This document shows positions 3,835 to 62,290 of a DNA stretch of 64,000 bases, one piece after another. A model generated the notes under the pieces. It ran no database searches and was not told the DNA's origin. It was given only the letters and a program-made list of their open reading frames with translations. The stretch lies in the UHGV virus genome UHGV-0092003; one strand, 5' to 3'. Source of the DNA: a virus. The position numbers were made by a program, and so were the translations under genes. Every line of letters begins with the position of its first letter. The stretch's first letter is position 1.

Positions 3835-3863
3835 AGGCCGCTTTGCGCGGCCTTTAATTTTTG
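3835..3863 (+). terminator. rho-independent terminator
   Basis: Stem AGGCCGC/GCGGCCT followed by TTAATTTTTG. Confidence 0.55.
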
Positions 3864-3918
3864 TTGTCTGGCCGCTCGAACCAATTGAGTATAAAGAAAA
3901 ATAAATGGAGTGGTTTTA

Positions 3919-4368
3919 ATGAAAAAAACATTCATCGCATTAACACTTTCAGTGACCTTTCTTGTCACCGGCTGCGGCGAAGACAAAATGAAGGATGAGG
4001 CTGTTGAGTTTACGAAAGAAGCGATACTGAAGAAGCTGGCAGACCCGGAGTCGGCGTCCTTTTCTGATATCAAGTTCGTCAACACTAACGCTGAGAAGAC
4101 GCTCCCTATCGGCGAATATATTGTTTGCGGAAAAGTGAAGGGTAAAGATGCTCATGGAGAGGATTTTGAAACCGAGTTTTCTTCGGATTTGATGCTTGAA
4201 GTGTCAAAGTTTAATGACGAAAAAAAGGACTTCATGATCGAAGTTTTGCCTCGGTATAACTTTGACACCGGGATCATTGACCGCAGATACTATGATTATG
4301 AAATAGCCTGTTCAAAGGGTGTTGAAGCCTTCAAAAAGAATCGTGAAGAAAAGTCCTCATCCAAGTAA
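3919..4368 (+). CDS. lipoprotein moron (possible superinfection-exclusion lipoprotein)
   Basis: Signal peptide and lipobox LVTG|C. GGAG RBS 8 nt upstream. AT-rich gene set between two terminators inside the tail module. Confidence 0.5.
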   Translation: MKKTFIALTLSVTFLVTGCGEDKMKDEAVEFTKEAILKKLADPESASFSDIKFVNTNAEKTLPIGEYIVCGKVKGKDAHGEDFETEFSSDLMLEVSKFNDEKKDFMIEVLPRYNFDTGIIDRRYYDYEIACSKGVEAFKKNREEKSSSK

Positions 4369-5635: not shown

Positions 5636-5991
5636 TTTCCCGCGAAGAGGAATCCGGCGTCGTCACTGTCTCGATAGACTTCGGATTCTATTTCAGCCGA
5701 GTTATTGCTTATTACGCCATTCCGCCGCGAGAGATTCTAAAGCTGCCGCTGGCAACCTTCTGGATGCTTAGCCGCAACATAGACCGCCTAAAAGCCGAGG
5801 ATGACCTGAGAGTATTCCAGGTGTCACGGCTTTCTCAGGCGGGGGCGGAAGACGCTACGGCGTTTATGGAGGGTTTGCAATACCGGATAGGAAGACCAGT
5901 CGTAACCGATAAAGTCTACGATCCATCGAAAGCAAAAGCAGACCCTGACGCCAAAGAGCAATTAATGGAAATCTTTGGAAAAATAGGATAA
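5539..5991 (+). CDS. tail assembly chaperone T-like frame (likely G-T −1 frameshift product; first ATG at 5764)
   Basis: −1 frame open from 5539 and overlapping the G end. No SD before ATG 5764. Ends 5 nt before the tape measure start. Confidence 0.5.
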   Translation, partial: SSENPAAAADLFFRHGTGRGRERSRGRRRRKVISREEESGVVTVSIDFGFYFSRVIAYYAIPPREILKLPLATFWMLSRNIDRLKAEDDLRVFQVSRLSQAGAEDATAFMEGLQYRIGRPVVTDKVYDPSKAKADPDAKEQLMEIFGKIG

Positions 5992-5995
5992 GGGA

Positions 5996-16000: not shown

Positions 16001-19000
16001 CCGTGCTAAAGCTGTTGCAGATGAAGCCAGCGCTCGTGCTTCCGCGATTAGCGATTCGATTGCGGTTGAGGCTAATGCTCGCGCTAAGGCGATTTCGGAT
16101 TCCGCATCCACTCTCAGTGCTAAAATTGACAAAGAGGCAAGCGACAGAGCCGCGGCAGTTTCTGCGTTGGATACTAAAACTGCCAATGCTCTCTCTTCCG
16201 AAACATCAAGTCGTATCGCCGCTATTTCTGACGAAGCAAAGACTCGCGCTGACTCGATCCTTCAGGAACAGAATAGCCGCAAGGCTGATATTAGTACGCT
16301 GAAGACCCAAGTTCAGACGTCTACTGACTCTCTGGCTCAGCAAATCTCCCAAGTGGCTGCAGGCACTGGCGAGCAGTTTGATAGTCTTAATATTTGGTAT
16401 TTCGATACCAGCAATGAAGGTTGGACTGAAGACGATAGCGGTAATACGCCAATGAGCGTAACCAGTGATGGGTGGCTGCGTTCGGCCAGCAGTACCGCAT
16501 CGTACCGATCGCCTAACTATATGGCTATTGATGCGGCCGCATACCGGTTTGTTAAATTACGTCTGAAGAAAGTGGGATCACCGGTCTGGGCTGGTAAGTT
16601 ATTTTGGATCGGTACGTCAGAAGGTGGCTGGAGCGACGCTCGCTCATTGACTATCAACGAGCCTGAATATGACGCGAATGGCGTGGCAACGCTGACGATT
16701 CACGACATTGACTGGCGTTCGTCTGAAACTATTCGCCGCTTCCGTTTTGACTTCTTGAAAAATCAGGACAGCACAAACTACGTCCAGATCGACTGGATTG
16801 CTGTTGGACGACCAACGCCGGGCGCTGGTATGGCTGCGCTGCAGGCTGAGCAGACAGCACGTGCAAATGCTGACGCAGCTGAGGCCGCAAATCGAAACAC
16901 GCTCGCCGTGCAGATTCGTGGATCATATGACGGAAACGATCTTTCTAAGGTCAGTTCTGGTCTGATTTTCCAGGAGCAGCAAGCGCGAGTTACCGCAGAC
17001 AAGGCAGAGGCAACGGCACGTCAGTCACTTGAGACGAAGGTGAATGATAGCGTGTCCAGCATCAACAAGTCGCTTGATACCCTGAACACTCAGGATAAAG
17101 CGATGGCGTCTGACATTTCCGGTATCAAATCGTCTCTTGGTAATAAGGCTGACGCGTCGGCGCTGCAAACACTCAAGACGACGGTTGACCAGCAAGGTTC
17201 TAGCATTTCCACACAGGGCCAGTCGATTACCAAGCTTCAGAATGACCTGAACACGACCAACACTAATGTAGGTAAAAAAGCCGATCAGACGGCACTCGTC
17301 TCATTGCAGGGAACCGTGACGCAGCAGGGTAAAGATATCACTTCTGCAAATAGCAGCATCACTAATCTCAAGACCTCTCTGGACGCTACGAATAGCAATT
17401 TAGCGAAGAAAGCGGATGCGTCAGCTGTTGGTGATCTGTCTTCTCGCGTCAGCGCAACCGAGGATAAAGTATCAAGTCAGGGAGATAGCATTGTTCAGCT
17501 GAATAACTCACTGAATAACGCGCTGGCCGACTCTGACGCCTCTTCTAAAACGCCTAACAATCTGATCGTCAACCCGTCATTTGAGCGCGGTACAGATGGC
17601 TATATCGGCGTATCCAGTCTCAGTACGGTCGTTGATATTCAGATACCGCATGTCGGCACAAAAGCACTGAAAATTGACCCAGGTAGCTCCGTATCTCCGG
17701 GCCAGTACATCGATTTTGTCAAAGGCCGTACTTATGAGATCGGCGTCTGGGCTAAACAGGTTTCTGGAACAGCAGATAATGGGCAGAGTAACAACAAACT
17801 GCGAGTGGGTAATAGTGCTGGAGCGCCAGTGTTTGAGGTCCCGTTCGCAAACCTCACCGTTGACTGGACGAAAGTTAGCAAACGATGGAAGGCTACCGAG
17901 ACGGGAAGTCTGCCCGTTACGCTGAGCAACTATCTGACGGCCGGAAACCGTTACTTCGACGATTTTTATGTCATTGATGTAACCGACTCCGTGGCTATTG
18001 ATGCAAATGCTTCCGCACTGTCTTCGCTACAGAATACCGTGACGCAACAGGGTAAAGACATTTCGTCCCAATCCACCAGCATCACCGACCTGAACAACAG
18101 TCTGAAAACGACCAACGACAACGTAGCGAAGAAAGCTGATTCCTCCGCTGTTCAGACTCTTCAGAACACAGTGACTCAGCAGGGTAAGGATATTTCCGCA
18201 GCTACAAGCGATATATCTTCATTGAAGAACGGTCTTGCCACGACCGATGGTAATGTTGCGAAGAAAGCTGATGCGTCTGCATTGCAGTCTCTGCAGAATA
18301 CGGTAACACAGCAGGGTAAAGATCTGACCAGCGTCGGAAGTCGAACTACCGCTCTGGAAAACAATCTCAAAGCGACGAATGACAATGTTGCAACCAAGGC
18401 CGATGCCTCCGCGCTGTCAACGCTTCAGAATACCGTATCACAGCACGGTGACTCCATTGCGTCTCAGAGCGACTCAATAACCAGTCTGAAAAACAGCGTC
18501 GGTTCTATGGTTAACATGGGCGACAATCTGGTTCAGGACTCCAGCTTTGACAACGGCGGGCAAACGTTCAGGACTCAGCAAAATTCTGGAACATCTGGAA
18601 GCATTGTTGCGTTTGGTGCGTTTGGTGAAAACTCGGCCGGTGTGCGTATGGTTAAAGTCAACAGCACGTCGCCTGGTCTGTTCGCTAACGGCAAACTGCC
18701 AGTTCCGGTAAATGGCGCGAGAAAATACCGTTACATTGTTCGCGCGAAGGGTGTTTCCGGGGCAATGAATATGCTGCTGCGCCGCTGGAATTTTAACGGC
18801 AATACGGAAGGGGCGTATGAAGATAAGAACAATACGCTTACTACTGACTGGCAGACTATTACATGGGACACATCCTTCTCGCCGAAAGATGGTGTGAATG
18901 GTCAGTCCTTTGGTATTTACTGCCATCCGGCTAATGCTGAGATCTGGATTGATTCATTCCAGGTGTTCGATATCACCGATGCTTTTAACAATGACACGAC

Positions 19001-22000
19001 AGCAAGCGCGTTGAGCAATCTGTCCACGACAGTTTCTCAGCAGGGAAGCACCGTAACTTCTCAGGGTGCGGCAATCACAAAGCTGCAAAATGATTTAAGC
19101 TCCACAAAAACCGATGTCTCGAAAAAGGCTGACTCGACGGCGTTGCAGACGCTGCAGAACACCGTTACTGATCAGGGTAAAACGCTGACCAGCCAAGGCA
19201 ATGCAATCACGGCTTTGACCGGCACCGTTGACACGGTAAAAGGTGATGTGGCTAAGAAAGCGGATGCGACGGCTTTGAATAACCTTTCTACTCGGGTTAG
19301 CAATGCTGAAGATAAGATCAGCAGCAGCAGTGACGCCATCACTTCGCTGAACAACTCGCTGAATCAGCAGTCTAAGCGCGGCGCAAACATCTTGCCAGAC
19401 GGGACGTTCGAGAGCTATTCGAGCGGGTACAATATCACCAATGGTCGCGTCATCGTGACTACTGACGATTCTCACGGCGGAAACAAATGCATCCGTGTGA
19501 CGCGTCCGAACGACTACAATCCCAATGCAACTGACAACAGTGACAACCACATCTTCAGCGGCTTCCAGGTTCGAGATAATGCGGTGTTTTATGTTGAGTG
19601 CTGGGTTAAGTTGGATGCCAAGAGCACGACGATGGATGGTTCGGTGCAGATTGCGATCGGCATGTCGTTGCAGTATCAGGATAACTCCTGGCAGTGGCCG
19701 GCACTCATTAAGTCGGCAAAAGATCTGTCCGCAGACACCTGGACGAAAGTCAGTGGCTATCTGAAGAGCAGCAAGAGCGGTATCAAACAGGCGATGGTAC
19801 GGATCTCCATGCCAAACGTATCGGCTGTTAAGGCGGGTAACTCCTTCCTCGTCGATGATTTTGTCATTACCGACGTGACAGACGCCTATAATGCCCAGCA
19901 GACGGCTGATGCCACTGCGAGCGCGGTATCAACGCTTCAGACGACTGTGTCCAAGCAGGGCGACAGCATCACCTCGCAGGGCGACAGCATCACAACCCTG
20001 AATAATGGTCTGGCTACGGCGAACAAAGCCATTGGCACCAAGGCTGATGCCTCCGCGCTGTCATCGCTGCAAAACACCGTTACCCAGCAGGGTAAAGACG
20101 TTGCTGCCAACACCAGCAATATCACTGCGCTGTCAAATCAGGTTGTCAACGGCAAGCAGAACACCTGGTCGCGACGTATTTACAAATGTCAGCTATCTAA
20201 CTCTGCCACTGAGCCTACATTTAGCGATATCCAAGGGCTTTCTCCGGTCTTTATGGATGAAGTGGCCGACGCAGCTAAAATGGACTTCTCTGGCGCTGGG
20301 TCGTATGTGGTTGCGCATTATAAGGCAATGGTTCGTGTTGCTGCGGATACCACAATCGCCGTATCACCTGGCTCTCGTGTGTTTGATGACTCCGGTGCGG
20401 TGTATGTGAATGGTGTTCGTCAGGCTGCTGCGTTGGCTGGAACAGCTGTACTCAATTTCACACTGTCCGCCGGCTGGAATACTGTAGAGTTTCTGATTAA
20501 TCAGTGGACCGGTAATGCCTATGTCAATCTGGGCTTCAAGCTGGGCGACAAGGTTGCCGAGCTGTATTCTGGTCTGGGCGTCTCTTCACTGTCTTCGGCG
20601 CTGAACTCGATCACCTCCAACGTCAGCAAGGTGGGTGATCAGGTTTCCAGCAACAGCACGGCGATCACCTCTCTGAAGAACGGTCTGAGCGATACCAACT
20701 CTACCGTTGCGAAGAAAGCAGACGCCACGGCATTGCAGACGCTGCAAAACACCGTCACCCAGCAAGGCAAGGATATCGCAAGCCAGAGCGACAGCGTGAC
20801 GAACCTCAGCAACGCACTCAATAATGTTTCTATTGGCGGTGTCAACCTGATCAAAAACTCAGGCGACATGACCGGCTGGTCTGGTAAAACCAATGAGATC
20901 TTCCGTGGCAATGCGGTGATTAGTGCGACTTCAAAAGCTGGTAGCTCTTACCGAGATCTCAAAGAGATCATTCTCGACGCTCCAGTCGACAATGCAGAGT
21001 ACGTTTACAGTTTCTTTGCAAAAGGCGGTGAGAACGGCCAGAGCATGACCGCTTACTTCTACAATCCTAACTCGACGACATCTAGTGTTAGTAGCCAAGG
21101 TGTGTCAGGCGGTGATGTCGATGGTCGTATGTCATTCACTTTGACAACTGAGTGGGTTCGTTATTGGGTTAAGTGGAAGCAGAAGCCGGGAACTGGATCT
21201 AAGAGACTAATCCTTGCTCGCATCCAGGCATCTTCGACGAAAGATCAGACCGTCTCTATCACCAGCCCTAAGCTGGAAGTTGGCAATATGCCTACAGAGT
21301 GGTCTCCGGCGCCGAGCGATATGGCATCGTCTAACGATCTGTCATCGCTGAAGACTACGGTTGACGCGAATAGCGGCGCTATTCAGTCTGTGACCTCTCG
21401 CGTCCAGACAACTGAAGACAGCATCTCCACGCAGAATACCGCGATCACTAAGCTTCAGAGTGATTTGTCGAGCACCAACAATCTGGTTTCGACAAAGGCT
21501 GATTCAGCTGCGCTTCAGACACTGTCAGGTCGCGTAGATAAGACGGAATCCAGCATCAGCACGCAGAACGATGCAATAACCAAGCTGAACAGCAGCCTTG
21601 ATACCACAAATAAAGCTGTGGCTAAAAAGGCGGAGCAGTCGTCTCTCGATACGCTGAGCGGCCGGGTATCCAGCACTGAAAATGGAATCACGGCGGCGAA
21701 CTCCAGCATCACGTCTCTGAATGCGGCTATTCGCGCAGAGAACGCGAGCAGTGGGGATTTGATTACCAACCCTACATTTGACCCTCAGTACGCTCAGATG
21801 GGATTTACCGTCGTCACAACCGACACTGATGGTGTTCCAGCAAACTGTCCATTCAAATATGCGGCTAAACTTGCGTCCCGTGACCATCATCCAAACTTCA
21901 ACACCATTGTCGCAACGCTGGGCGATGTGTTTGAAATTTCTGTGCTGGTGGCGTGCGGCGCTGGGAATGCTGACTTTAACCTCTATATTGGCACAGCAAA

Positions 22001-25000
22001 CGGCCCAACTGGTGGGATAGGTGGCCCGCTTTATAATGGCGGAAATACCAAAGCTACAAGCACCTGGACTCGCGTAACATGGAAGTTCACTGTTAGCCAG
22101 GCAATGGTTGACAAAGGCTACATTCGTCCGTTCCTGCAAATCAACCAGTCTTCACCGTTCGGCACGATCTGGTATGTGACTGACTGGCATATGCGCAACA
22201 TCACTGCGGCATCTAAGGCGCAGGATACGGCGAATGCCACCTCTAAGGCGGTCGATTCTCTGACGTCCACAGTGAACCAACAGGGCAGCGATATTTCCTC
22301 GATCGGCTCTCGCACAACGTCGCTTGAGAATGGTCTTAGCACTACCAACGCTAACGTCGCGAAGAAGGCTGATGCTTCAGCTCTGCAAACACTCCAGAAC
22401 TCGGTGACGCAGCAGGGTAAAGATATTTCCAGCCAGGGCACTCGTGTGACGTCCATCGAGAATAGCCTGACGTCTGGTGCTAACCTCATCCCTAACGCCA
22501 AGATGCTCAATGGCGCACAGGGATGGGCTGGGGCGGCGACAACTGTCGACGGTTATGCGGCGGCAGAAAGCTCGTCTGCATGGCAACCAAGCTCACCACC
22601 GTTTGAAGTGACACCGGGCGATACGCTGGATTTAAGCCTGATGTGTCTGGCAAATGCGGCAATTACTTTCGCCTGGGGATTGCGTTTTGACGGACCTAGT
22701 CTCAGCAATAAAACCGTCTACACAAACAACTTGAGTTATCAAGCTGGTGAGAAGAAGGCTGTAAGCGGTACGATTGTCGTTCCTGCCGGCGCGACCACAG
22801 CACGGCTGCAACCGAACACCGGCGCTACCGCGAGTCTGACCGTCTATAACGTCGTCGTCACTCGTCGAGACGCAGGAACTATGGCCAACAGCTCCGCTAT
22901 TGACTCGCTGACCAGTACGGTTAAGACGCAGGGTGACACGCTTAGCTCGATCGGAAGTCGCACAACTTCGCTGGAAAATGGGCTGAAGAGCGCTAACAGC
23001 GCTCTCTCACTGAAAGCGGACGCGTCGGCACTGTCATCGCTGACAAATACCGTGACCCAGCAAGGCAAGGATCTGGATGCAGCAGAAGCCAATATAACTG
23101 CGGCGAACACCAGCATCACCTCCATGCAAGCGTCACTGACTCGTCGCACTGTATTTACGGTAACGGCGAAAGGCAACGGTAACAGCGCTAATCACGGTCT
23201 CTTTGATGAGTCAGGTAAAAATCTGTTTACGCCTGGTCGTAGCTATGCGCTGATCACGTTTAAAGCGAATAGCGACGGCTCGACGGTCATTAATACCAGC
23301 AAAACCTATGACGTTTTTGGCTCTGCCAACAACGGGAAGGCGATGTCTGACGATATTGCTGCTCTGGCTAATGGCGTTTACGTTTGCGTGATGACTTATG
23401 ACGAGCCGACGGGTCAGCGTAATTCGATTGCATCTGCCTTAGAGTTGCTCGGTGGCACAACTGAAGTTATTAACTCTCTGCCATATCGCGGCGCGTACAT
23501 TCTCCTTGGCCGTAAAGGCATGAAGGCCGGCGACGGTCTGGAGTTACGCGCACCTACAGGTGGTGACTCCAGCGCATTTATTTCCACGTCCGTTGAGTTT
23601 GTGAACGGGGTAATGATGGGGTTGGGCGCCGCCGGCGGTGTAATGATGAAGGCGGATGCGAACGCCAGTGCAATCACCACTCTGCAAAATACCGTAACGC
23701 AGCAGGGCAAGGATATTACATCGGCCAGTAGTGCGATCACTAACCTACAGAATGGTCTCAATACGGCCAATGGGGATATCAACAAAAAAGCTGATGCGAC
23801 TGCTCTTTCCGCGCTTCAGAATACTGTGACGCAGCAAGGTAAAGATATTTCCTCTCAGGGATCATCTTTAACCCAACTGACTAATAGCCTAAATGCGACT
23901 AACGACAGCATCGACGCGTCTGGTCAGATTCCTGGAAACATGATCACCAACGCCTCATTCGAGCGTGATAACGGTGGATATAGTACCTGGAGTGGCCCTG
24001 CTTCTGTCATGGTGGCACAGTCGCCGCGAACCGGTAGCAAAATACTGAAAATCGCGTCTGGTTCTCCCACTTTGGTTGGTCAGAAAATCACATATGTGAA
24101 GGGACGTACATACAAAATCGGCATGTGGGCGCGTCAGGATTCTAATACGACGATTAATGGTGGAACGAGTAACACAAAATTCAGGGTAGCGGATAGCACC
24201 GGACTTATTGCATCGTTTGGTTACGGCCCATTCACGACGTCTTGGCAGGAAATTTCGTGGGTCTGGAAAGCGACCAAAGACATGGTTGCAGACACACAGA
24301 TCACCGCCTATCTGACCGCCGGTGCGATGTATTTCGACGACTTCTACGTCATCGACATTACTGACCGCGTCGATCTGGATGCCACAACGTCCGCGGTTTC
24401 CGGTCTGACGACGAGAGTGTCCAATGCTGAAGGGGATATTTCAAATATCTCCAACAGCGTTACCAGCCTGAACAATAGTTTGAGCACGTTGAATAAGACA
24501 GTCAGCTCTAAGGCTGATGCCTCGGCACTGTCTTCGCTGCAGAATACCGTTACTCAGCAAGGAAAAGACATCTCATCGGCGAGCGAGAGTGTCACCAACC
24601 TTCAGAGCAGTCTCAACACGCTGAAAGTCCAGACCAACCCTTGGATCGACGGCACGTTTGAAACCTATGACAATAATCAGCAGATTGGCGGCAGCACTGC
24701 GGTTATTACTACGGATTTCAAGAGCAGCGGCAACAAATGTCTGAAGGTGACTCGCCCAGCGAATGCAAGTGGAAACTCCGATAAGACTATAGGTTCTTAC
24801 TCTGTTGTGCGTCAGAGCGCCAAGTACCGCGTTGAGTTCTGGGCAATGATGCCGGCTGCAGAAGCGCCACCGTCTGGTTGGTCTGTGGCCGTAGGTCTTC
24901 ACTCCATCAACAAAGATGGTGGGAATGACTGGCAGGGCATCACGTTCAATGAGGGTAGCCTCGGCGGGCGCGATAAATGGGTGAAATTTACAGGGGTGGT

Positions 25001-25967
25001 AAGCCTGAGTGCATCGGTGACTCGTAGCCATGTGTGGATTTCGACCCGTGGTCAAAGTGGATCTAATACACCTGGTTATAGCGTGTACATTGATGATTTC
25101 GTCATTACAGACGTCACTGACGCTGCAGAGGCGCAGCAAACGGCTAATGCTAATGCGACGGCCATTTCGTCTCTGCAAGCTAAGACGAGTGATCTGGACG
25201 GGAAAATCACGGCGCAGACCAGCCAACTGACGTCGATGCAGTCGAAGGTAGACGCGTCTTCTTCGAAAGTGGATCAGCTGTCTAAGACCATTTCGGACAG
25301 TCAGAGCACTCAGGCATCGTTGAACACCAGTCTTCAGTCTCAGATTGATGCTCAGGCTTCGGCCAACATCAAAAACCAGGCTGATTTGAACTCGGCGACA
25401 ACGAGCATCGCGTCTATCAAATCGACTCAGGCGACTCAGGCGACTCAGATTAGCGCAATGGCAAAAACGCAGACTGACATGACCGCATCATTGAATAGTC
25501 AATCTGCATCTATCCAGACGCTGCAAGAGGCGGTCTCAAACAATGACGCGCTGAACAGTACCTGGATGGTGAAGATGGAAACCAACAACAACGGGCAGAA
25601 GTATGCGGCGGGCATCGCTCTCGGTGTTGATGGCAAAAATATGCAGAGTCAGTTCCTGGTTCAGGCAGATCGATTCGCGCTAATTAACACCTCGAATGGC
25701 AATACGACGACTCCGTTTGTGATTGATAATGGTGTAACCTATATGAACGCGGCCTTCATCAAGGATGGGTCAATAGGTAGCGCCAAGGTCGGTGACTTAA
25801 TGAGTTCTAATTTCCAAGAAAATGTTAGAGGTTGGAGAATCTCTCGCGATGGAACGATGAACATCAATGGCTCTGGGCCGGGTAGTTCCAGAACCGTAAT
25901 CACGAACGGTAGGATCGAAGTTTACGACTCGAATAACCGTCTGCGCGTGAGAATGGGTATTTTCTAA
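13077..25967 (+). CDS. central tail fibre / host specificity protein J-like, giant (4296 aa)
   Basis: N-terminus and C-terminus align with lambda J (…GVTWWFRDG…, NSALVGLKINSEQFGS, WMVKMETNNNGQKYAAGIALG…QFLVQADRFALIN). About 3000 aa of inserted repeat modules. Confidence 0.9.
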   Translation: MEVPNFKKSRLSQLVAHGLIISGRGGSKGGGSSRTPVEANDTVNSRAMASVLDLLGEGVIGGLIDGAKSIFLNDTPLQNSDNSYNFSGVTWWFRDGSQDQSVIDGFDFIETPKSVGRQLKQTSQVNVSLDSADSDRVRVVMKFPSLRSIDKKSGDTNGTTVQFKFQIDAGNGGGFVDVVAEGESNATISLTAKKTGVYYRSYVLDLPKPAKAYTLRAIRLTEDHTDNSYLYDDTYIDSIGEIVNTSLNYPNSALVGLKINSEQFGSSMPTRSYLIKGLKIRIPSNYNADTNSYDGNWDGTFKLASSSNPAWILFDLLTNTRYGLGQFVQESMINIGELYQIGRYCDAYVDDGFGGKEKRFSINTQITSRQDAYRVVQDIAGAFRGMVYWAGGMVHITQDSPADPVMLFSNSNVVNGSFAYKGSARKDRYSVALITYNNKEDGYKQSVEYVEDQEAIKRYGIRKTESVAFGCTSRGQAHRVGLWTLYTSRMESDVITFAVGMDSVFLMPGDIVLIADKFRAGRRNSGRITGYTSNSIKLDAPVDLTSVGNHITFLSAEGKMVGRDILENGKNITTVTFKTALSSNETPVSDAVWVIAQPDLTPLQARVVSVAEGDDGTSFNITAIQNNPTKYEAIDSGAQLIPQNTTVLDPTFSKPSGLAITEGTYLSSPGNLSVSLTATWQGKSAQYYISWRRSDAGNVSNWKSERVTEEQFELRGVAENGQYDFQVYAVSVGGRKTDPISITYKVLGTMTAPDAPTGLTAVGDYRSIVLNWVNPASVDLDHIEVLASKTNDKSKAQLIAKVSGTTFSHNGLEDSVTWYYWVRAANKRGMLSALNSPLATTATTRDVLSFLQNKITESELGQALITDINSKAVATEVDAAIDDAKSQATNQVNSARAEAANAVSQAQKTLDSLIKQEVTDRKSAVADEARQRAKAIADEADARTKAISDEATARADAISKEVTARDKAIADEATARAKAVADEASARASAISDSIAVEANARAKAISDSASTLSAKIDKEASDRAAAVSALDTKTANALSSETSSRIAAISDEAKTRADSILQEQNSRKADISTLKTQVQTSTDSLAQQISQVAAGTGEQFDSLNIWYFDTSNEGWTEDDSGNTPMSVTSDGWLRSASSTASYRSPNYMAIDAAAYRFVKLRLKKVGSPVWAGKLFWIGTSEGGWSDARSLTINEPEYDANGVATLTIHDIDWRSSETIRRFRFDFLKNQDSTNYVQIDWIAVGRPTPGAGMAALQAEQTARANADAAEAANRNTLAVQIRGSYDGNDLSKVSSGLIFQEQQARVTADKAEATARQSLETKVNDSVSSINKSLDTLNTQDKAMASDISGIKSSLGNKADASALQTLKTTVDQQGSSISTQGQSITKLQNDLNTTNTNVGKKADQTALVSLQGTVTQQGKDITSANSSITNLKTSLDATNSNLAKKADASAVGDLSSRVSATEDKVSSQGDSIVQLNNSLNNALADSDASSKTPNNLIVNPSFERGTDGYIGVSSLSTVVDIQIPHVGTKALKIDPGSSVSPGQYIDFVKGRTYEIGVWAKQVSGTADNGQSNNKLRVGNSAGAPVFEVPFANLTVDWTKVSKRWKATETGSLPVTLSNYLTAGNRYFDDFYVIDVTDSVAIDANASALSSLQNTVTQQGKDISSQSTSITDLNNSLKTTNDNVAKKADSSAVQTLQNTVTQQGKDISAATSDISSLKNGLATTDGNVAKKADASALQSLQNTVTQQGKDLTSVGSRTTALENNLKATNDNVATKADASALSTLQNTVSQHGDSIASQSDSITSLKNSVGSMVNMGDNLVQDSSFDNGGQTFRTQQNSGTSGSIVAFGAFGENSAGVRMVKVNSTSPGLFANGKLPVPVNGARKYRYIVRAKGVSGAMNMLLRRWNFNGNTEGAYEDKNNTLTTDWQTITWDTSFSPKDGVNGQSFGIYCHPANAEIWIDSFQVFDITDAFNNDTTASALSNLSTTVSQQGSTVTSQGAAITKLQNDLSSTKTDVSKKADSTALQTLQNTVTDQGKTLTSQGNAITALTGTVDTVKGDVAKKADATALNNLSTRVSNAEDKISSSSDAITSLNNSLNQQSKRGANILPDGTFESYSSGYNITNGRVIVTTDDSHGGNKCIRVTRPNDYNPNATDNSDNHIFSGFQVRDNAVFYVECWVKLDAKSTTMDGSVQIAIGMSLQYQDNSWQWPALIKSAKDLSADTWTKVSGYLKSSKSGIKQAMVRISMPNVSAVKAGNSFLVDDFVITDVTDAYNAQQTADATASAVSTLQTTVSKQGDSITSQGDSITTLNNGLATANKAIGTKADASALSSLQNTVTQQGKDVAANTSNITALSNQVVNGKQNTWSRRIYKCQLSNSATEPTFSDIQGLSPVFMDEVADAAKMDFSGAGSYVVAHYKAMVRVAADTTIAVSPGSRVFDDSGAVYVNGVRQAAALAGTAVLNFTLSAGWNTVEFLINQWTGNAYVNLGFKLGDKVAELYSGLGVSSLSSALNSITSNVSKVGDQVSSNSTAITSLKNGLSDTNSTVAKKADATALQTLQNTVTQQGKDIASQSDSVTNLSNALNNVSIGGVNLIKNSGDMTGWSGKTNEIFRGNAVISATSKAGSSYRDLKEIILDAPVDNAEYVYSFFAKGGENGQSMTAYFYNPNSTTSSVSSQGVSGGDVDGRMSFTLTTEWVRYWVKWKQKPGTGSKRLILARIQASSTKDQTVSITSPKLEVGNMPTEWSPAPSDMASSNDLSSLKTTVDANSGAIQSVTSRVQTTEDSISTQNTAITKLQSDLSSTNNLVSTKADSAALQTLSGRVDKTESSISTQNDAITKLNSSLDTTNKAVAKKAEQSSLDTLSGRVSSTENGITAANSSITSLNAAIRAENASSGDLITNPTFDPQYAQMGFTVVTTDTDGVPANCPFKYAAKLASRDHHPNFNTIVATLGDVFEISVLVACGAGNADFNLYIGTANGPTGGIGGPLYNGGNTKATSTWTRVTWKFTVSQAMVDKGYIRPFLQINQSSPFGTIWYVTDWHMRNITAASKAQDTANATSKAVDSLTSTVNQQGSDISSIGSRTTSLENGLSTTNANVAKKADASALQTLQNSVTQQGKDISSQGTRVTSIENSLTSGANLIPNAKMLNGAQGWAGAATTVDGYAAAESSSAWQPSSPPFEVTPGDTLDLSLMCLANAAITFAWGLRFDGPSLSNKTVYTNNLSYQAGEKKAVSGTIVVPAGATTARLQPNTGATASLTVYNVVVTRRDAGTMANSSAIDSLTSTVKTQGDTLSSIGSRTTSLENGLKSANSALSLKADASALSSLTNTVTQQGKDLDAAEANITAANTSITSMQASLTRRTVFTVTAKGNGNSANHGLFDESGKNLFTPGRSYALITFKANSDGSTVINTSKTYDVFGSANNGKAMSDDIAALANGVYVCVMTYDEPTGQRNSIASALELLGGTTEVINSLPYRGAYILLGRKGMKAGDGLELRAPTGGDSSAFISTSVEFVNGVMMGLGAAGGVMMKADANASAITTLQNTVTQQGKDITSASSAITNLQNGLNTANGDINKKADATALSALQNTVTQQGKDISSQGSSLTQLTNSLNATNDSIDASGQIPGNMITNASFERDNGGYSTWSGPASVMVAQSPRTGSKILKIASGSPTLVGQKITYVKGRTYKIGMWARQDSNTTINGGTSNTKFRVADSTGLIASFGYGPFTTSWQEISWVWKATKDMVADTQITAYLTAGAMYFDDFYVIDITDRVDLDATTSAVSGLTTRVSNAEGDISNISNSVTSLNNSLSTLNKTVSSKADASALSSLQNTVTQQGKDISSASESVTNLQSSLNTLKVQTNPWIDGTFETYDNNQQIGGSTAVITTDFKSSGNKCLKVTRPANASGNSDKTIGSYSVVRQSAKYRVEFWAMMPAAEAPPSGWSVAVGLHSINKDGGNDWQGITFNEGSLGGRDKWVKFTGVVSLSASVTRSHVWISTRGQSGSNTPGYSVYIDDFVITDVTDAAEAQQTANANATAISSLQAKTSDLDGKITAQTSQLTSMQSKVDASSSKVDQLSKTISDSQSTQASLNTSLQSQIDAQASANIKNQADLNSATTSIASIKSTQATQATQISAMAKTQTDMTASLNSQSASIQTLQEAVSNNDALNSTWMVKMETNNNGQKYAAGIALGVDGKNMQSQFLVQADRFALINTSNGNTTTPFVIDNGVTYMNAAFIKDGSIGSAKVGDLMSSNFQENVRGWRISRDGTMNINGSGPGSSRTVITNGRIEVYDSNNRLRVRMGIF

Positions 25968-40001: not shown

Positions 40002-40343
40002 CTATAAGTTTTCACTAAGATTAACTCGTTTTCGACGTTAAGCGACTTTGCGGTTTTTTAGAAACTGACCAACAAAGTAAATGCAAACGATGATGTAGTT
40101 CTGATGGCGGCTTAACAGCCTATAAGTCAGTGAGGTCTTCCGATTCCTCATTAACAAATTCGGCGCATTGTGGGTACCGAGATGTGATTAATAAATCGGA
40201 ATCTTAAAGAAGTGTTTTGGGTGATGGCCTTTTAGTTTGTCGATTAGCTGTGCATAGCGTCGGCGAGCAAAGTCTGGTGACTTAAAGGTTTATTCCGATG
40301 CCTGGTATGTGAAATGCAAATAGCATATTTGAGGCAGAGGATT

Positions 40344-40774: not shown

Positions 40775-40857
40775 GCAAACAAAGCAGTCTGGTTGACTGC
40801 GGCCGAGGAAGACGTCTTATCCGGCAGAGAGTGGTTCGATTCCGCTTGTTTGCGCCA
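40775..40857 (+). tRNA. tRNA-like gene with aberrant anticodon arm
   Basis: Perfect acceptor GCAAACA/TGTTTGC. D-stem GCAG/CTGC with GG in the loop. T-arm AGTGG-TTCGATT-CCGCT. Discriminator G plus encoded CCA. The 29-nt region in the anticodon-arm position gives no canonical 5-bp stem with a 7-nt loop. Confidence 0.45.
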
Positions 40858-60092: not shown

Positions 60093-60121
60093 TTGACTCT
60101 GCCAATGACTTCATCATAGAT
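60093..60121 (+). promoter_or_regulatory. candidate σ70 promoter TTGACT-17-ATAGAT
   Basis: Placed between the two terminators with no ORF downstream. Confidence 0.35.
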
Positions 60122-60127
60122 TGTCAA

Positions 60128-60339
60128 GGTGGTGAATCCCCCTGAGCGGTGGGGCGACCAGTCAGTTACAGTGATCTGTAAATGCAGCGCGAGCCATGTC
60201 GGCTGGGACATGCTCACCGGGAGGCACCCGGCACCACAAGCGTTACTAAGCAAATTCGTAGCAGAATTAACCCCTTGTTAACCCTGTTATGTTTAACAAA
60301 TCCAATTTCAACCCGCCCCCCCTTGTGCGGGTTTTTTTT
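60128..60339 (+). ncRNA. candidate ~210-nt small RNA (promoter to terminator)
   Basis: Bounded by the candidate promoter and the strong terminator at 60312–60339. Contains several internal inverted repeats. The only plus-strand ORF here is antisense to the minus-strand gene. Confidence 0.3.
60312..60339 (+). terminator. rho-independent terminator
   Basis: CCCGC-CCCCCTTGT-GCGGG followed by T9. Confidence 0.7.
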
Positions 60340-60352
60340 TAACTCAAACTGC

Positions 60353-61078
60353 TTAGCGGTCTTCCTTGCTCCCCTTTCTGACGCCAACTTTAGAGAAATG
60401 GCCATACATTGCGCCAAGGCTGGCAAATGGAAATTTTTCGCCCATTTGTGCCCGAATATCCTTACCTGTATATTCGCCAGATGCCCACATATCAGTACAT
60501 GCAGCTTTAAGTTGAACACGGGGATCTACCGGTTTCGGTTTAAGGGGCTTCTTACGAGGTTTTCTCGGATGCTCAGGTATGATGCCATTTTTCTTAAACC
60601 AGCGTCTAAGTGCGCCGACGTTTTTCATACCTAACTCGGGAGAGAGTTCATCAAAGATTTGTCGGGTTGTGTGCTGGCCGGCTTTCCTTAACTCCACGGC
60701 TCTTTCTCTCAAAATTGCTCGCGGATTATTCGGAGCGTCGGGCGACTCGGAGTTTCTTATGTATCCATTTTGCCGGAACCAGAAAAGAAGAGATCCCTTG
60801 CGCTGTATACCCAGACGGCCTTTAAACATTTCAAGTAATTCGGGAGCGCTATACAGACCTGAAATCCATAGCGCGGCAGCTTCATGCCTGTTTTCATTGA
60901 TTTTTTCTTTGGACTTGGAGCCTCGGATCTTGCCTTGTGATGAAAGCCAATGAACGAGTTCAGCTGAAGAACTCATGCCCATTCGTTTTCCTAACACCAT
61001 AAGGATCATGTCAGCATCAAAGGCCCCACTCTCCCATAGCTCAATGGCTTTTAACCCAGCCAACTCTCTGTCTGTCAT
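60353..61078 (-). CDS. DNA-binding protein with three tandem ~45-aa HTH-like repeats
   Basis: Repeats LGKRMGMSSSAELVHWLSSQGKIR, FKGRLGIQRKGSLLFWFRQNGYIR and LSPELGMKNVGALRRWFKKNGIIP. Only minus-strand gene in this block. Confidence 0.5.
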   Translation of the reverse strand: MTDRELAGLKAIELWESGAFDADMILMVLGKRMGMSSSAELVHWLSSQGKIRGSKSKEKINENRHEAAALWISGLYSAPELLEMFKGRLGIQRKGSLLFWFRQNGYIRNSESPDAPNNPRAILRERAVELRKAGQHTTRQIFDELSPELGMKNVGALRRWFKKNGIIPEHPRKPRKKPLKPKPVDPRVQLKAACTDMWASGEYTGKDIRAQMGEKFPFASLGAMYGHFSKVGVRKGSKEDR

Positions 61079-61148
61079 TCGTCTTCCAGGCCGCTAAAAA
61101 GAACATGTTATGCAGGATAAAAGCAGGGTTCAATATGTTTCGCTTGAT

Positions 61149-61169
61149 GATAAGTAAGCACTTATTTAT
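61149..61169. promoter_or_regulatory. palindrome GATAAGTAAGCACTTATTTAT (family A)
   Basis: 16-mer GTAAGCACTTATTTAT shared with the site at 48191. Confidence 0.5.
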
Positions 61170-61200
61170 TATGTATAAGCTTTTCAACAAGAGAAAACAC

Positions 61201-61404
61201 ATGACCACAAAACTGTATTTAAAAATCTGCGCACTGATCTCGTTTGCGATGTCGATGGCAGGGTTAGTCATCCCCTATCTCGTGTCTCAAAAGAGCGACG
61301 TTGCTGTCCTGATTGGCTTCGTGCTGATGTTCACAACCCCCTTCGCTTCCTATAAAGCGGCTAAAAGCATTATCCATCAACTAATTACAGGAAAAACAAA
61401 ATGA
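61201..61404 (+). CDS. small 2-TM membrane protein (NfeD-like partner candidate)
   Basis: Two hydrophobic helices; coupled to the SPFH gene. Confidence 0.4.
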   Translation: MTTKLYLKICALISFAMSMAGLVIPYLVSQKSDVAVLIGFVLMFTTPFASYKAAKSIIHQLITGKTK

Positions 61405-62228
61405 AAAAGGGAATTATCGCACTGGCTGTCGTAGCGGCCATGACCATGTTAACAGGCTGCGAGTACGTTAAGCCTGGTGAAGTGGGTATCAAGGTCAACA
61501 AATTAGGTGACGACAAAGGTGTTGGGGAAGTTGTTGGCGTTGGCCGTCAATGGATTGGCTGGAATACCACTCTGTACACCTTCCCTACCTTCAAGCAGAT
61601 GAAGTCGTATGAAGACGCCTTCAACTTCCAAATGAGCGATGGTACAGCGATCGGCTATCACATTGGTGTAACTTACAAAGTAGACCCGACCAAAGTCACC
61701 ACCATCTTCCAGACCTACCGTAAAGGCGTCGACGATATCACCGAAACCGATCTGAAACAGAAGATCGCAGACGTACTGATTAAACAGGCCAGTCACATGA
61801 CCACTGACCGCTTTATCGACGGCGGCAAAACTGAACTTTTGGATAATTCACTGAAAGCTATTCAGACCGAAATGGGGCCGGTTGGAATTCAGGTTCTCAG
61901 TCTGTCTTGGATGGGTAAACCGGAGTACCCGCCGAGCGTTATCGAGTCCATTAACGCCAAAGTAACGGCAAACCAGACCACGCTGCAACGTGAGCAGCAG
62001 GTTAAGCAAAAAGAAGCTGAAGCAAACATGGTTCGCGCCCAGGCAGCGGGTGAAGCTGACGCCAAGGAAACTCTGGCTAAGGCTGATGCTGAATCTATCC
62101 GCATCCGCGGTGATGCTCTCCGCCAGAACCCGGAGGTTATGCAGCTGGAAGCCATCAACAAATGGAACGGCACACTGCCGCAGTACATGACCAACGGCGC
62201 GAATACCCCATTCATTACCGTTAAGTAA
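61401..62228 (+). CDS. SPFH/band-7 domain lipoprotein
   Basis: Lipobox LTG|C. Band-7-like core followed by an Ala/Glu-rich coiled-coil. Confidence 0.55.
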   Translation: MKKGIIALAVVAAMTMLTGCEYVKPGEVGIKVNKLGDDKGVGEVVGVGRQWIGWNTTLYTFPTFKQMKSYEDAFNFQMSDGTAIGYHIGVTYKVDPTKVTTIFQTYRKGVDDITETDLKQKIADVLIKQASHMTTDRFIDGGKTELLDNSLKAIQTEMGPVGIQVLSLSWMGKPEYPPSVIESINAKVTANQTTLQREQQVKQKEAEANMVRAQAAGEADAKETLAKADAESIRIRGDALRQNPEVMQLEAINKWNGTLPQYMTNGANTPFITVK

Positions 62229-62290
62229 TTCAGTAATCAAAAGGCGTCATTTTTGGCGCCTTTCTCTTCTCAGTAAAATATCAAACATAA

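What the first reader, a model, noticed from the sequence alone, without database searches (positions are those of the whole stretch)
61201..62228. Phage-encoded SPFH/band-7 lipoprotein with a small 2-TM partner
A 67-aa two-helix membrane protein is translationally coupled to a 275-aa lipoprotein. The lipoprotein carries an SPFH-like core and an Ala/Glu-rich coiled-coil tail.

SPFH proteins normally pair with NfeD-like membrane proteins to organise membrane microdomains or regulate proteases. On a phage this is unusual. Possible roles are superinfection exclusion, membrane stabilisation during lysogeny or timing of lysis.

The family-A site with the shared 16-mer precedes the operon.
Basis: partly seen in the sequence, partly recalled or inferred. 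Interest (0 to 1): 0.55.

Follow-up and report, generated by a model that had tools for sequence, protein, structure and literature searches.

The report
Common phage SPFH lipoprotein with partner
The two genes are real and do encode an SPFH (band-7) lipoprotein plus a tiny two-helix membrane partner, but this pair is a common cassette of unknown function found in hundreds of phages, so its presence here is ordinary.

Summary
A 67-aa two-helix membrane protein (61201-61404) overlaps by ATGA a 275-aa lipoprotein (61401-62228). The lipoprotein matches Pfam Band_7 at E=1.6e-27. Its model has an SPFH core and one 65-residue Ala/Glu/Gln-rich helix, and folds most like HflC/HflK, erlin and prohibitin.

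The claim that this is unusual on a phage is wrong. The window is a Klebsiella SSU5-like phage-plasmid, and a 99.6% identical plasmid already annotates the gene as "SPFH domain-containing protein". 685 of 50,697 phage records encode a homologue (PHROG 200), in temperate and virulent phages.

The small protein is not NfeD. It has no Pfam or PDB relative. It is nevertheless a constant partner:
- It lies directly upstream in 86/86 close loci, 67/67 Pseudomonas-clade loci and 10/11 marine-clade loci.
- It is detected in 8 of 12 distant phages.
- It is fused in frame to the SPFH protein in at least 11 lineages.

98 of 105 close homologues carry Asp at +2 after the lipobox Cys, which predicts inner-membrane retention. 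This window has Glu.

My best reading is a periplasm-facing SPFH cage that works with the partner to control inner-membrane events during phage growth. The biological role is untested.

The parts
61144..61172 (+). Sigma-70-like promoter candidate, TTGATG-17 nt-TATTAT, 29 nt upstream of the small gene
   Evidence: The consensus scan gives 9 of 12 matches. This is a consensus match only. An equivalent TTGAAA-17-TATCAT lies upstream of SSU5_061.
61150..61169 (.). It lies over the spacer and -10 of the promoter candidate, so it is a probable operator.
   Evidence: The 17-mer recurs exactly at 48199. Ten sites match with 3 or fewer mismatches, against 0.13 expected. The other sites precede tail genes, CobT/CobS-like genes and genes of unknown function. 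The site is conserved upstream of the same operon in SSU5 and related phage-plasmids. It is absent from phiP27, P1-like and N4-like loci. It therefore belongs to the phage-plasmid backbone and not to the cassette.
61201..61404 (+). Gene for the 67-aa two-TM partner. TM1 is about residues 5-28, the periplasmic loop SQKSD is 29-33, and TM2 is about 33-51. The C-terminus is Lys-rich. The conserved motif is G-x3-P-x-[LM]-[IVLF]-S.
   Evidence: It matches phrog_1130 'membrane protein' at E=6e-12. In the family alignment Pro25 is invariant, and Ser29 and Gly39 are at least 90% conserved. It sits directly upstream of the SPFH gene in 86/86, 67/67 and 10/11 loci. It has no Pfam or PDB relative and no named homologue.
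61401..62228 (+). Gene for the 275-aa SPFH lipoprotein. The signal peptide and lipobox LTGC have Cys20 at 61458-61460. The Band_7 domain is residues 23-207 (61467-62021). The long coiled-coil helix is residues 178-242 (61932-62126). The conserved C-terminal K-W-N-G-x-L-P is residues 254-260 (62160-62180).
   Evidence: Pfam Band_7 matches at E=1.6e-27 and phrog_200 at E=1.5e-99. The AF2 model has pLDDT 81.3. Foldseek's top PDB hits are HflC (7vhq_G, E=2.6e-15) and HflK, then erlin, prohibitin, stomatin, flotillin and QmcA. A family profile against PDB sequences gives prohibitin-1 at 1e-10, HflK at 2e-7 and HflC at 8e-6. W255 and G257 are invariant across 77 diverse homologues.
62240..62263 (+). 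Terminator-like hairpin 12 nt after the SPFH stop codon: a 10-bp stem, a 4-nt loop, then UUCUCUUCUC
   Evidence: RNA folding gives dG -14.9 kcal/mol and z=-5.8, and none of 200 shuffles fold as well. The simple terminator scan did not list it, because the T-run is interrupted.

Best explanation
The locus is a self-contained two-gene accessory cassette: promoter/operator, small gene, SPFH gene, terminator. The family moves between very different phages.

Shown:
- The large product is an SPFH-superfamily protein with a lipoprotein signal.
- The small product is a two-helix membrane protein that is its constant genetic partner.

Inferred:
- After export and lipidation at Cys20, the SPFH protein sits on the periplasmic side of the membrane. 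Most relatives carry the inner-membrane retention signal.
- Like every solved full-length SPFH protein, it assembles through its 65-residue helix and conserved C-terminal KWNGxLP segment into a ring or dome over a patch of membrane.
- The N-in/C-in partner sits in that patch. Its conserved periplasmic loop (P-x-L-I/V-S-x-K/R-D/S) contacts the SPFH domain. In role it stands in for NfeD, but it is not related to NfeD.

Most likely role (speculative): the complex insulates or controls inner-membrane events while the phage develops. It would keep the membrane sealed and energised against superinfecting phage injection or premature failure, and so affect exclusion and/or lysis timing.

In this phage-plasmid the operon is wired into the backbone's palindromic-operator regulon. 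It is therefore probably switched together with replication and tail operons.
For: Identity:
- Pfam Band_7 matches at E=1.6e-27.
- The AF2 model and Foldseek give HflC, HflK, erlin and prohibitin at E of 1e-13 to 1e-15.
- The family profile hits prohibitin, HflK and HflC best. Those are the SPFH proteins whose domains face the periplasm or the mitochondrial intermembrane space.

Topology:
- A signal peptide and lipobox are present.
- 98 of 105 close enterobacterial homologues read C-D-[RN]-[VA], with Asp at +2. From established E. coli Lol-sorting knowledge, this is the inner-membrane retention signal.
- Lysines flank the partner at both ends, so its loop faces the periplasm.

Partnership:
- The partner HMM hits an ORF ending at or overlapping the SPFH start in 86/86 loci. 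These include P1-like, lambdoid/Stx, SSU5-like and N4-like phages.
- It is also present in 67/67 Pseudomonas-clade loci, 10/11 marine-clade loci and 8/12 distant GenBank phages.
- Of 18 unusually long (322-392 aa) sequences among the top 150 family representatives, 11 match the partner HMM in their N-terminal part at E of 1e-5 to 4e-11. They are in-frame fusions: partner, linker, lipobox, SPFH.
- One fusion, P0087, occurs in two independent assemblies.
- The stop/start overlap is conserved.

Cassette nature:
- It has its own promoter-like site and terminator hairpin.
- It sits in moron positions next to integrase in phiP27 and a Serratia prophage.
- It is naturally absent from 4 of 30 related plasmids.

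Role, circumstantial only:
- Carriers include strictly virulent phages.
- In Kayvirus the distant mbpV-mbpS pair lies inside the lysis gene cluster (PMC7150955).
- Curing an SSU5-like Klebsiella plasmid raised plasmid uptake and phage burst, but the responsible gene is unknown (PMC8969562).
Against: - No experiment on any member was found in six literature searches. A 2026 paper states that the reason the gene is in phages is unclear (PMC13239085).
- No PADLOC defence model matches.
- This window's protein has Glu, not Asp, at +2. In E. coli Glu is not a known retention signal, so it may go to the outer membrane. That would separate it from an inner-membrane partner.
- Oligomerisation and the partner contact are inferred by analogy. 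No multimer was modelled.
- The most distant branches lack the recognisable partner: Kayvirus, Caulobacter, Ochrobactrum and phiEa21-4.
- Related plasmids keep the small gene without the SPFH gene. The partner is therefore tolerated alone, and the SPFH protein is dispensable for plasmid maintenance.
Confidence: 0.4

Rival explanations
1. It is an FtsH modulator. The phage SPFH lipoprotein acts like HflK/C or prohibitin. On the periplasmic face it surrounds or binds the host FtsH protease, or competes with HflK/C. This changes the turnover of phage or host membrane and regulatory proteins, as HflKC-FtsH does for lambda CII.
For: The closest solved relatives by fold and by profile are HflC, HflK and prohibitin. 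All of these cage AAA+ FtsH-type proteases. NCBIfam gives a weak HflC match at E=5e-7. The predicted periplasmic orientation is the same as HflK/C. FtsH is universal, which fits the very broad host range.
Against: The HflC model score is 28.9 bits against a cut-off of 134.4. There is a single gene and not a K/C pair, and a lipid anchor in place of a TM helix. Nothing links the locus to FtsH. The constant partner is a dedicated phage protein, which suggests the partner and not FtsH is the client. Many carriers are virulent phages with no lysogeny decision.
Confidence: 0.2
2. It is a regulated membrane-permeabilising pair. The 67-aa N-in/C-in two-TM protein is a holin- or pinholin-like or channel-forming effector. 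The SPFH cage restrains or times its action, as an antiholin-like or toxin-control function, and so sets lysis timing or causes abortive death.
For: Its size, two-TM N-in/C-in topology and charged C-terminus resemble class II holins (established holin knowledge). In Kayvirus, mbpV-mbpS lies between lysK and tgl, and MbpV was said to resemble holins (PMC7150955). Tight translational coupling and fusions suit a fixed stoichiometry.
Against: In most phages the pair is not next to endolysin or spanin genes. It lies among early, replication or moron genes. PHROGs files the partner as a 'membrane protein' and not a holin. Four related plasmids keep an almost intact small gene without the SPFH gene, which argues against an unrestrained lethal effector. 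In-frame fusions would be odd for a holin.
Confidence: 0.1
3. It is a lysogenic-conversion surface factor for the host. It would alter envelope properties such as stress tolerance, antibiotic tolerance or virulence for the benefit of the lysogen, and play no role in phage development.
For: The cassette sits in moron positions next to integrase in several prophages, with its own promoter and terminator. Host SPFH proteins affect stress and aminoglycoside tolerance (PMC10434171, title and abstract).
Against: Close homologues at 59-73% identity occur in strictly virulent N4-like phages. More distant ones occur in Vequintavirinae, Ounavirinae, jumbo and T4-like phages. In this window the promoter is overlain by an operator-like site shared with tail and replication operons.
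Confidence: 0.1

Closest known systems
E. coli HflK/HflC (SPFH cage around FtsH; PDB 7vhp, 7vhq, 7wi3)
   Same: It is the best structural match (Foldseek E=2.6e-15 and 8e-14). It has the same domain order: membrane anchor, SPFH1/2, long wall helix, C-terminal cap segment. The SPFH domain is predicted on the periplasmic side.
   Different: There is a single gene and not a K/C heteropair. The anchor is lipid, not an N-terminal TM helix. Sequence identity is 17-19%, and the score is far below the HflC family cut-off. It has a dedicated 2-TM partner. No link to FtsH is shown.
Prohibitin PHB1/PHB2 (PDB 8rrh, 9o9z)
   Same: It is the best sequence-profile match to any solved structure (E=1e-10 over residues 7-243). 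Its size is similar at about 270 aa. It has the same 'outward-facing' topology relative to the energised membrane.
   Different: Prohibitin is eukaryotic or mitochondrial, TM-anchored, and a heteromeric pair that works with m-AAA proteases.
QmcA-YbbJ and other SPFH-NfeD operon pairs (PDB 8z5g; Hinderhofer et al. 2009, PMC2636767)
   Same: An SPFH gene is co-transcribed with a small membrane-protein gene, and natural fusions of the two exist. The partner plausibly sits in the membrane patch under the cage.
   Different: The partner has no NfeD domain (PF01957 not matched) and no OB-fold. QmcA faces the cytoplasm, whereas this protein is exported. QmcA is only a weak match (E=4e-4 by profile).
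PHROG 200 / PHROG 1130: phage 'lipoprotein' and 'membrane protein' families (for example phiP27 L05, SSU5_062/061, Pylas_029/028)
   Same: Both genes are direct members (E=1.5e-99 and 6e-12). The synteny is identical to SSU5, where the pair also follows the recombinase gene.
   Different: Nothing differs in kind. This copy has Glu and not Asp at lipoprotein position +2. In many records the family is mislabelled 'serine protease' or 'transposase'.
Kayvirus MbpV-MbpS (Staphylococcus phage K group)
   Same: It is a distant SPFH homologue at 26-28% identity. A small membrane protein is encoded immediately upstream and abuts it.
   Different: MbpS has an N-terminal TM anchor and no lipobox. MbpV has one TM helix plus a charged tail and does not match the partner HMM. 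The pair lies in the lysis gene cluster.

Membership tests
SPFH / Band 7 superfamily (PF01145) | Significant match to the Band_7 profile above the curated cut-off | tested here: met
   E=1.6e-27, 97.2 bits against a cut-off of 23.6, covering residues 23-207 and profile positions 3-175 of 176.
SPFH / Band 7 superfamily (PF01145) | SPFH alpha/beta core followed by a long coiled-coil helix, with a fold like solved SPFH proteins | tested here: met
   The AF2 model has pLDDT 81.3, strands across residues 20-94 and 163-175, and a helix at 178-242. 63 PDB chains match at E<=0.001, and all of the top 50 are SPFH proteins or the vault protein.
SPFH / Band 7 superfamily (PF01145) | Assembly into a large membrane-apposed ring or cage | not testable with these tools
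   No multimer prediction or experiment was available. This is inferred only from the conserved C-terminal KWNGxLP segment (W255 and G257 invariant) and from analogy with solved cages.
HflK/HflC (NCBIfam TIGR01932 / PRK11029) | Score above the equivalog cut-off | tested here: not met
   28.9 bits against 134.4, and 18.5 bits against 427.
HflK/HflC (NCBIfam TIGR01932 / PRK11029) | Two paralogous adjacent genes (K and C), each with an N-terminal TM helix | tested here: not met
   There is a single SPFH gene with a cleavable lipoprotein signal. The neighbour is a 67-aa 2-TM protein.
HflK/HflC (NCBIfam TIGR01932 / PRK11029) | Physical association with FtsH | not testable with these tools
   This needs co-purification or a two-hybrid assay.
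NfeD (PF01957), for the small partner | NfeD C-terminal OB-fold domain and match to the NfeD profile | tested here: not met
   The window protein has no significant Pfam match, and none of 25 family members matches NfeD. At 67 aa with two TM helices there is no room for an OB-fold.
NfeD (PF01957), for the small partner | Encoded in an operon with an SPFH gene | tested here: met
   There is an ATGA overlap. The adjacency is conserved in 86/86, 67/67 and 10/11 loci, and fusions exist. This is a shared arrangement only and does not show homology.
Bacterial lipoprotein (SPase II substrate) | Positively charged n-region, hydrophobic h-region, and lipobox [LVI][ASTVI][GAS]C | tested here: met
   The sequence is MKK-GIIALAVVAAMTM-LTG-C20. 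A lipobox-like motif is present in 109 of 150 diverse representatives and in 105 close homologues. Lipidation itself was not tested.
Bacterial lipoprotein (SPase II substrate) | Inner-membrane retention signal (Asp at +2 in Enterobacteria) | tested here: inconclusive
   98 of 105 close homologues have Asp at +2. This window's lineage (7 of 105) has Glu at +2.
Known anti-phage defence systems (PADLOC-DB v2) | Match to any defence-system protein model | tested here: not met
   Neither protein has a match at E<=0.1.
PHROG 200 and PHROG 1130 (phage protein families) | Profile match | tested here: met
   E=1.5e-99 and E=6.3e-12.

The most novel reading that the evidence does not exclude
The SPFH lipoprotein and its two-TM partner (P-x-L-I-S loop motif) form a distinct, NfeD-independent class of periplasm-facing SPFH cage. 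Phages of many families, in about 1.4% of sequenced phage genomes, would carry it as a general device to take control of the host inner membrane. It could act as a broad, receptor-independent block to incoming DNA, as a guard against membrane-depolarising host defences, or as a lysis-inhibition mechanism. The recurrent in-frame fusions would then be polyproteins split by signal peptidase II.
Probability: 0.25. Interest if true: 0.65.

Novelty: new member of a known kind. Interest (0 to 1): 0.33.

Why it matters
For this window it matters little. The gene is one more copy of a catalogued phage family and is already annotated in a near-identical plasmid.

The family itself is worth an experiment.
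- It is one of the larger phage protein families (PHROG 200).
- It spans temperate and virulent phages of Gram-negative and Gram-positive hosts.
- It has no tested function.

This work shows that it travels as a fixed pair, sometimes fused, with an uncharacterised two-helix protein. That gives a concrete and testable unit. A defined role in exclusion, lysis timing or FtsH control would explain a gene pair present in hundreds of therapeutic and prophage genomes. It would also correct widespread 'serine protease' and 'transposase' mislabels.

Tried and rejected
- **Phage DNA search:** Megablast of the locus against phage genomes found nothing. The element was identified through the plasmid collection instead.
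- **Solved structures by single sequence:** phmmer of the protein against PDB sequences found nothing at E<=0.01. A family profile and a fold search were needed.
- **Diverse-alignment locus search:** The search for related loci with the 77-sequence alignment failed because no stretch was conserved enough. Single distant queries replaced it.
- **NfeD identity of the partner:** rejected. There is no profile match and the protein is too short.
- **'Serine protease' and 'transposase' labels:** rejected. These appear on homologues in GenBank, but only the Band_7 domain is detected and no catalytic domain.
- **Known defence system:** rejected by the PADLOC search.
- **Functional studies:** six literature searches found none for any phage SPFH protein. 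A P. aeruginosa SPFH survey does not mention phages or lipoproteins. The 2009 SPFH classification does not mention them either.
- **Palindromic site as part of the mobile cassette:** rejected. It is absent from phiP27, P1-like and N4-like loci.
- **One reverse-order fusion (P0157):** the partner follows the SPFH protein. I left it uninterpreted, because an internal Met suggests two genes read through.
Full report
**1. What is in the sequence**

Two same-strand ORFs occupy the reported interval.
- The small ORF runs from ATG 61201 to TGA 61404 and encodes 67 aa.
- The large ORF runs from ATG 61401 to TAA 62228 and encodes 275 aa.
- They overlap as ATGA, the classic arrangement for translational coupling.

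The small protein has two hydrophobic stretches, about residues 5-28 and 33-51. A five-residue polar loop (SQKSD) joins them, and lysines flank both ends. By the positive-inside rule this gives an N-in/C-in hairpin with the loop in the periplasm.

The large protein begins MKKGIIALAVVAAMTMLTG-C, a signal peptide ending in a lipobox with Cys20.

A sigma-70-like promoter candidate (TTGATG-17-TATTAT, 61144-61172) lies 29 nt upstream of the small gene. A strong hairpin lies 12 nt after the stop codon, at 62240-62263 (dG -14.9 kcal/mol, z=-5.8). The unit therefore looks like a self-contained two-gene cassette.

**2. Identity of the large protein**

- Pfam Band_7 matches at E=1.6e-27, well above the curated cut-off and over nearly the whole profile.
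- PHROGs places it in phrog_200 'lipoprotein' at E=1.5e-99.
- An AlphaFold2 model built from 43 homologues has mean pLDDT 81.3. It shows a beta-rich SPFH core, helices, and one uninterrupted helix at residues 178-242.
- That helix is 20% Ala, 11% Glu and 11% Gln.
- Foldseek against the PDB returns only SPFH-type proteins at the top. These are HflC (E=2.6e-15), HflK, erlin, prohibitin, stomatin, flotillin and QmcA.
- A single-sequence search of PDB sequences found nothing.
- A profile of 77 diverse homologues hits prohibitin-1 best (E=1e-10), then HflK (2e-7), HflC (8e-6) and QmcA (4e-4).
- It is not an HflC orthologue, because it scores 28.9 bits against a cut-off of 134.4.

The SPFH assignment is secure. 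Within the superfamily the protein is nearest the prohibitin and HflK/C branch.

**3. Where the window comes from, and how unusual the gene is**

The last 25 kb of the window is 99.6% identical to K. pneumoniae plasmid pMB7868_2, a 111.6-kb plasmid. The gene order matches Salmonella phage SSU5: exonuclease, recombinase, small membrane protein, lipoprotein. The window is therefore a Klebsiella SSU5-like phage-plasmid. That plasmid already annotates the gene as 'SPFH domain-containing protein'.

A translated search of 50,697 phage records finds homologues in 685 of them.
- Temperate carriers include phiP27, Stx2 phages, P2-like P88, P1-like RCS47 and SSU5.
- Strictly virulent carriers include N4 and many Schitoviridae, Vequintavirinae, Felix-O1-like phiEa21-4, and jumbo Salmonella and Erwinia phages.
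- Other carriers include Caulobacter phiCbK-like phages, Myxococcus Mx1, LUZ24-like Pseudomonas phages, Prevotella Lak phages and 273 Staphylococcus (mostly Kayvirus) records.

SPFH ORFs in T4-like phages were tabulated in 2006 (PMC1524935).

The function, however, is unknown. A 2026 paper says the reason it is in a phage genome 'remains unclear' (PMC13239085). The only discussion I found is speculation about Kayvirus MbpS (PMC7150955). Six literature searches found no functional study.

**4. The small partner**

It is not NfeD.
- The window protein has no significant Pfam match.
- None of 25 family members matches NfeD.
- No PDB relative was found.
- All 70 relatives in a search of 5.8 billion proteins are 'hypothetical' or 'uncharacterized membrane protein'.

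It is nevertheless a real and constant partner. An HMM built from eight partner sequences hits an ORF that ends at or overlaps the SPFH start codon in all 86 loci examined. These were 80 IMG/VR contigs plus phiP27, SSU5, P1-like RCS47, N4-like Pastis and two plasmids. In phiP27, RCS47, Pastis, the Stx2 phages and a Serratia prophage the small gene is simply unannotated.

With a broader HMM, the results were as follows.

| Set of loci | Partner detected upstream |
|---|---|
| Pseudomonas-clade loci with intact upstream DNA | 67 of 67 |
| Marine-clade loci | 10 of 11 |
| Distant GenBank phages | 8 of 12 |

- The eight positive distant phages are Pylas, N4, SSE121, a Pseudomonas phage, Paxi, TL, a Burkholderia phage and Mx1.
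- The four negatives are Kayvirus, Ccr29, the Ochrobactrum phage and phiEa21-4.
- Three of those four still have some other membrane protein directly upstream.

In the family alignment Pro25 is invariant, and Ser29 and Gly39 are at least 90% conserved. This defines a motif G-x3-P-x-[LM]-[IVLF]-S at the end of TM1 and in the periplasmic loop.

**5. Rosetta-stone fusions**

Among the top 150 family representatives at 50% clustering, 18 are 322-392 aa long.
- Eleven of the 18 match the partner HMM in their N-terminal 60 residues at E of 1e-5 to 4e-11.
- In these the order is partner, short cytoplasmic linker, signal-like helix with lipobox, SPFH.
- A close relative at 73% identity (P0087) is fused in the same way. 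It is encoded identically in an NCBI genome and in an independent SRA assembly.

The fusions support a physical partnership. They also fit the topology proposed here, with the partner's C-terminus in the cytoplasm and the SPFH domain exported.

**6. Which membrane**

Of 105 close enterobacterial homologues with a lipobox, 98 read C-D-[RN]-[VA]. From established E. coli Lol-sorting work, Asp at +2 is the inner-membrane retention signal. This places the SPFH domain on the periplasmic face of the same membrane as the partner.

The window's own lineage (7 of 105) reads C-E-Y-V. Glu at +2 is not a recognised retention signal, so the location of this particular protein is uncertain.

**7. Regulation in this element**

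- AGTAAGCACTTATTTAT occurs exactly at 61153 and at 48199.
- Ten sites match with 3 or fewer mismatches, against 0.13 expected.
- The site is an imperfect 20-bp palindrome. At this operon it covers the spacer and -10 of the promoter candidate.
- Other copies precede tail genes, CobT/CobS-like genes and genes of unknown function.
- It is conserved upstream of the same operon in SSU5 and related phage-plasmids. It is absent from the phiP27, P1-like and N4-like loci.

It is therefore a backbone operator or promoter element and not part of the mobile cassette. My inference is that the cassette here is switched together with phage developmental operons.

**8. Dispensability**

Four of 30 related Klebsiella plasmids match the window only up to 61386. 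In pL3995-2 the small gene is intact apart from its last five codons, and the SPFH gene is gone.
- The SPFH gene is therefore accessory for plasmid maintenance.
- The small protein is tolerated alone.

**9. Mechanism**

Shown:
- The large protein has SPFH identity, a lipoprotein signal and an SPFH fold.
- It has an obligate genetic partnership with the small protein, including fusions.

Inferred:
- The SPFH protein is exported and lipidated.
- It forms a periplasm-facing ring or dome. The long helix and the invariant KWNGxLP C-terminal segment would build it, as in all solved full-length SPFH assemblies.
- The partner sits in the enclosed membrane patch and contacts the SPFH domain through its conserved loop.

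Speculative: the biological role. I favour control or protection of inner-membrane integrity during phage development, affecting exclusion and/or lysis timing. The reasons are:
- The cassette is kept by virulent as well as temperate phages.
- It is receptor-independent and highly conserved across hosts.
- In Kayvirus the distant pair lies in the lysis cluster.
- An SSU5-like Klebsiella plasmid reduces plasmid uptake and phage burst through unknown genes (PMC8969562).

The main rival is FtsH modulation, supported by the closeness to HflK/C and prohibitin. Weaker rivals are a caged holin-like effector and a pure lysogenic-conversion factor.

**10. Verdict**

The claimed rarity is wrong, and the NfeD analogy holds only for gene arrangement.

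The locus is an ordinary member of a large, catalogued phage gene family whose function is unknown. The added value here is the demonstration of a fixed, sometimes fused, two-gene module and its predicted periplasmic inner-membrane topology.

Noticed in passing
window 806, 10918/10921, 27556, 32453, 39982(-), 47684, 48199, 50261, 61153: A family of imperfect 20-bp palindromes (consensus about ATAAGTAAG-N3-CTTAYTTAT) has ten sites, against 0.13 expected. Most lie 10-80 nt upstream of operon starts, including tail genes, CobT/CobS-like genes and the SPFH operon. It is probably the operator or promoter element of a phage-plasmid-wide regulator, reminiscent of the scattered C1 operators of P1. It is conserved in SSU5.
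   Followed up: partly
window 60098-60294 (+): There is a full-length Rfam match to sRNA family STnc100 (RF02076): 74.8 bits against a gathering score of 47, E=1.6e-14. It lies in the gap between the recombinase gene and the reverse-strand ORF 60353-61078, about 900 nt upstream of the cassette.
   Followed up: no
window 61189-61203 and 28345, 34697, 37380, 41111, 50327, 56494, 58768: The string GAAAACACATG recurs at eight gene starts. It consists of a spacer plus start codon preceded by a purine-rich Shine-Dalgarno-like run. The element therefore has an unusually uniform translation-initiation region.
   Followed up: no
window 13077-25967 (+): A single 4,296-aa ORF follows the tape-measure-sized 1,512-aa ORF (5996-10534) and the minor tail genes. 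It is presumably a giant tail-tip or host-specificity protein.
   Followed up: no
window 40042-40197: A roughly 155-nt stretch is 80-87% identical to unannotated DNA in many unrelated phages, including Klebsiella Magnus, Enterobacter fGh-Ecl02 and Salmonella and Escherichia myoviruses. ARAGORN does not call it a tRNA; tRNA-Phe lies at 40775-40857. It has no Rfam match at gathering threshold.
   Followed up: partly
window 48225-51585 (+): CobT-like (670 aa) and CobS/'porphyrin biosynthesis'-like ATPase (416 aa) genes lie next to the DNA polymerase gene, as in SSU5. Each is preceded by a copy of the palindromic site.
   Followed up: no
L005 (NZ_CP135166.1 pL3995-2) 3839-4051, also H98-H100: Natural variants of the phage-plasmid keep the small partner gene, with only its last five codons replaced, but lack the SPFH gene. 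The match to the window stops at 61386. They are ready-made comparison strains.
   Followed up: partly
GenBank and RefSeq records of homologues: The SPFH gene is widely mislabelled 'serine protease', 'transposase', 'transposase fusion protein' or 'peptidyl-tRNA hydrolase'. The small partner gene is unannotated in phiP27, RCS47, Pastis, many Stx2 phages and a Serratia prophage (L183, about 5800-6000).
   Followed up: yes
P0157 (344 aa): One representative has the partner-like two-TM segment after the SPFH protein and not before it. An internal Met (MKKEIIKS...) suggests either a reversed gene order with read-through or a true C-terminal fusion.
   Followed up: no
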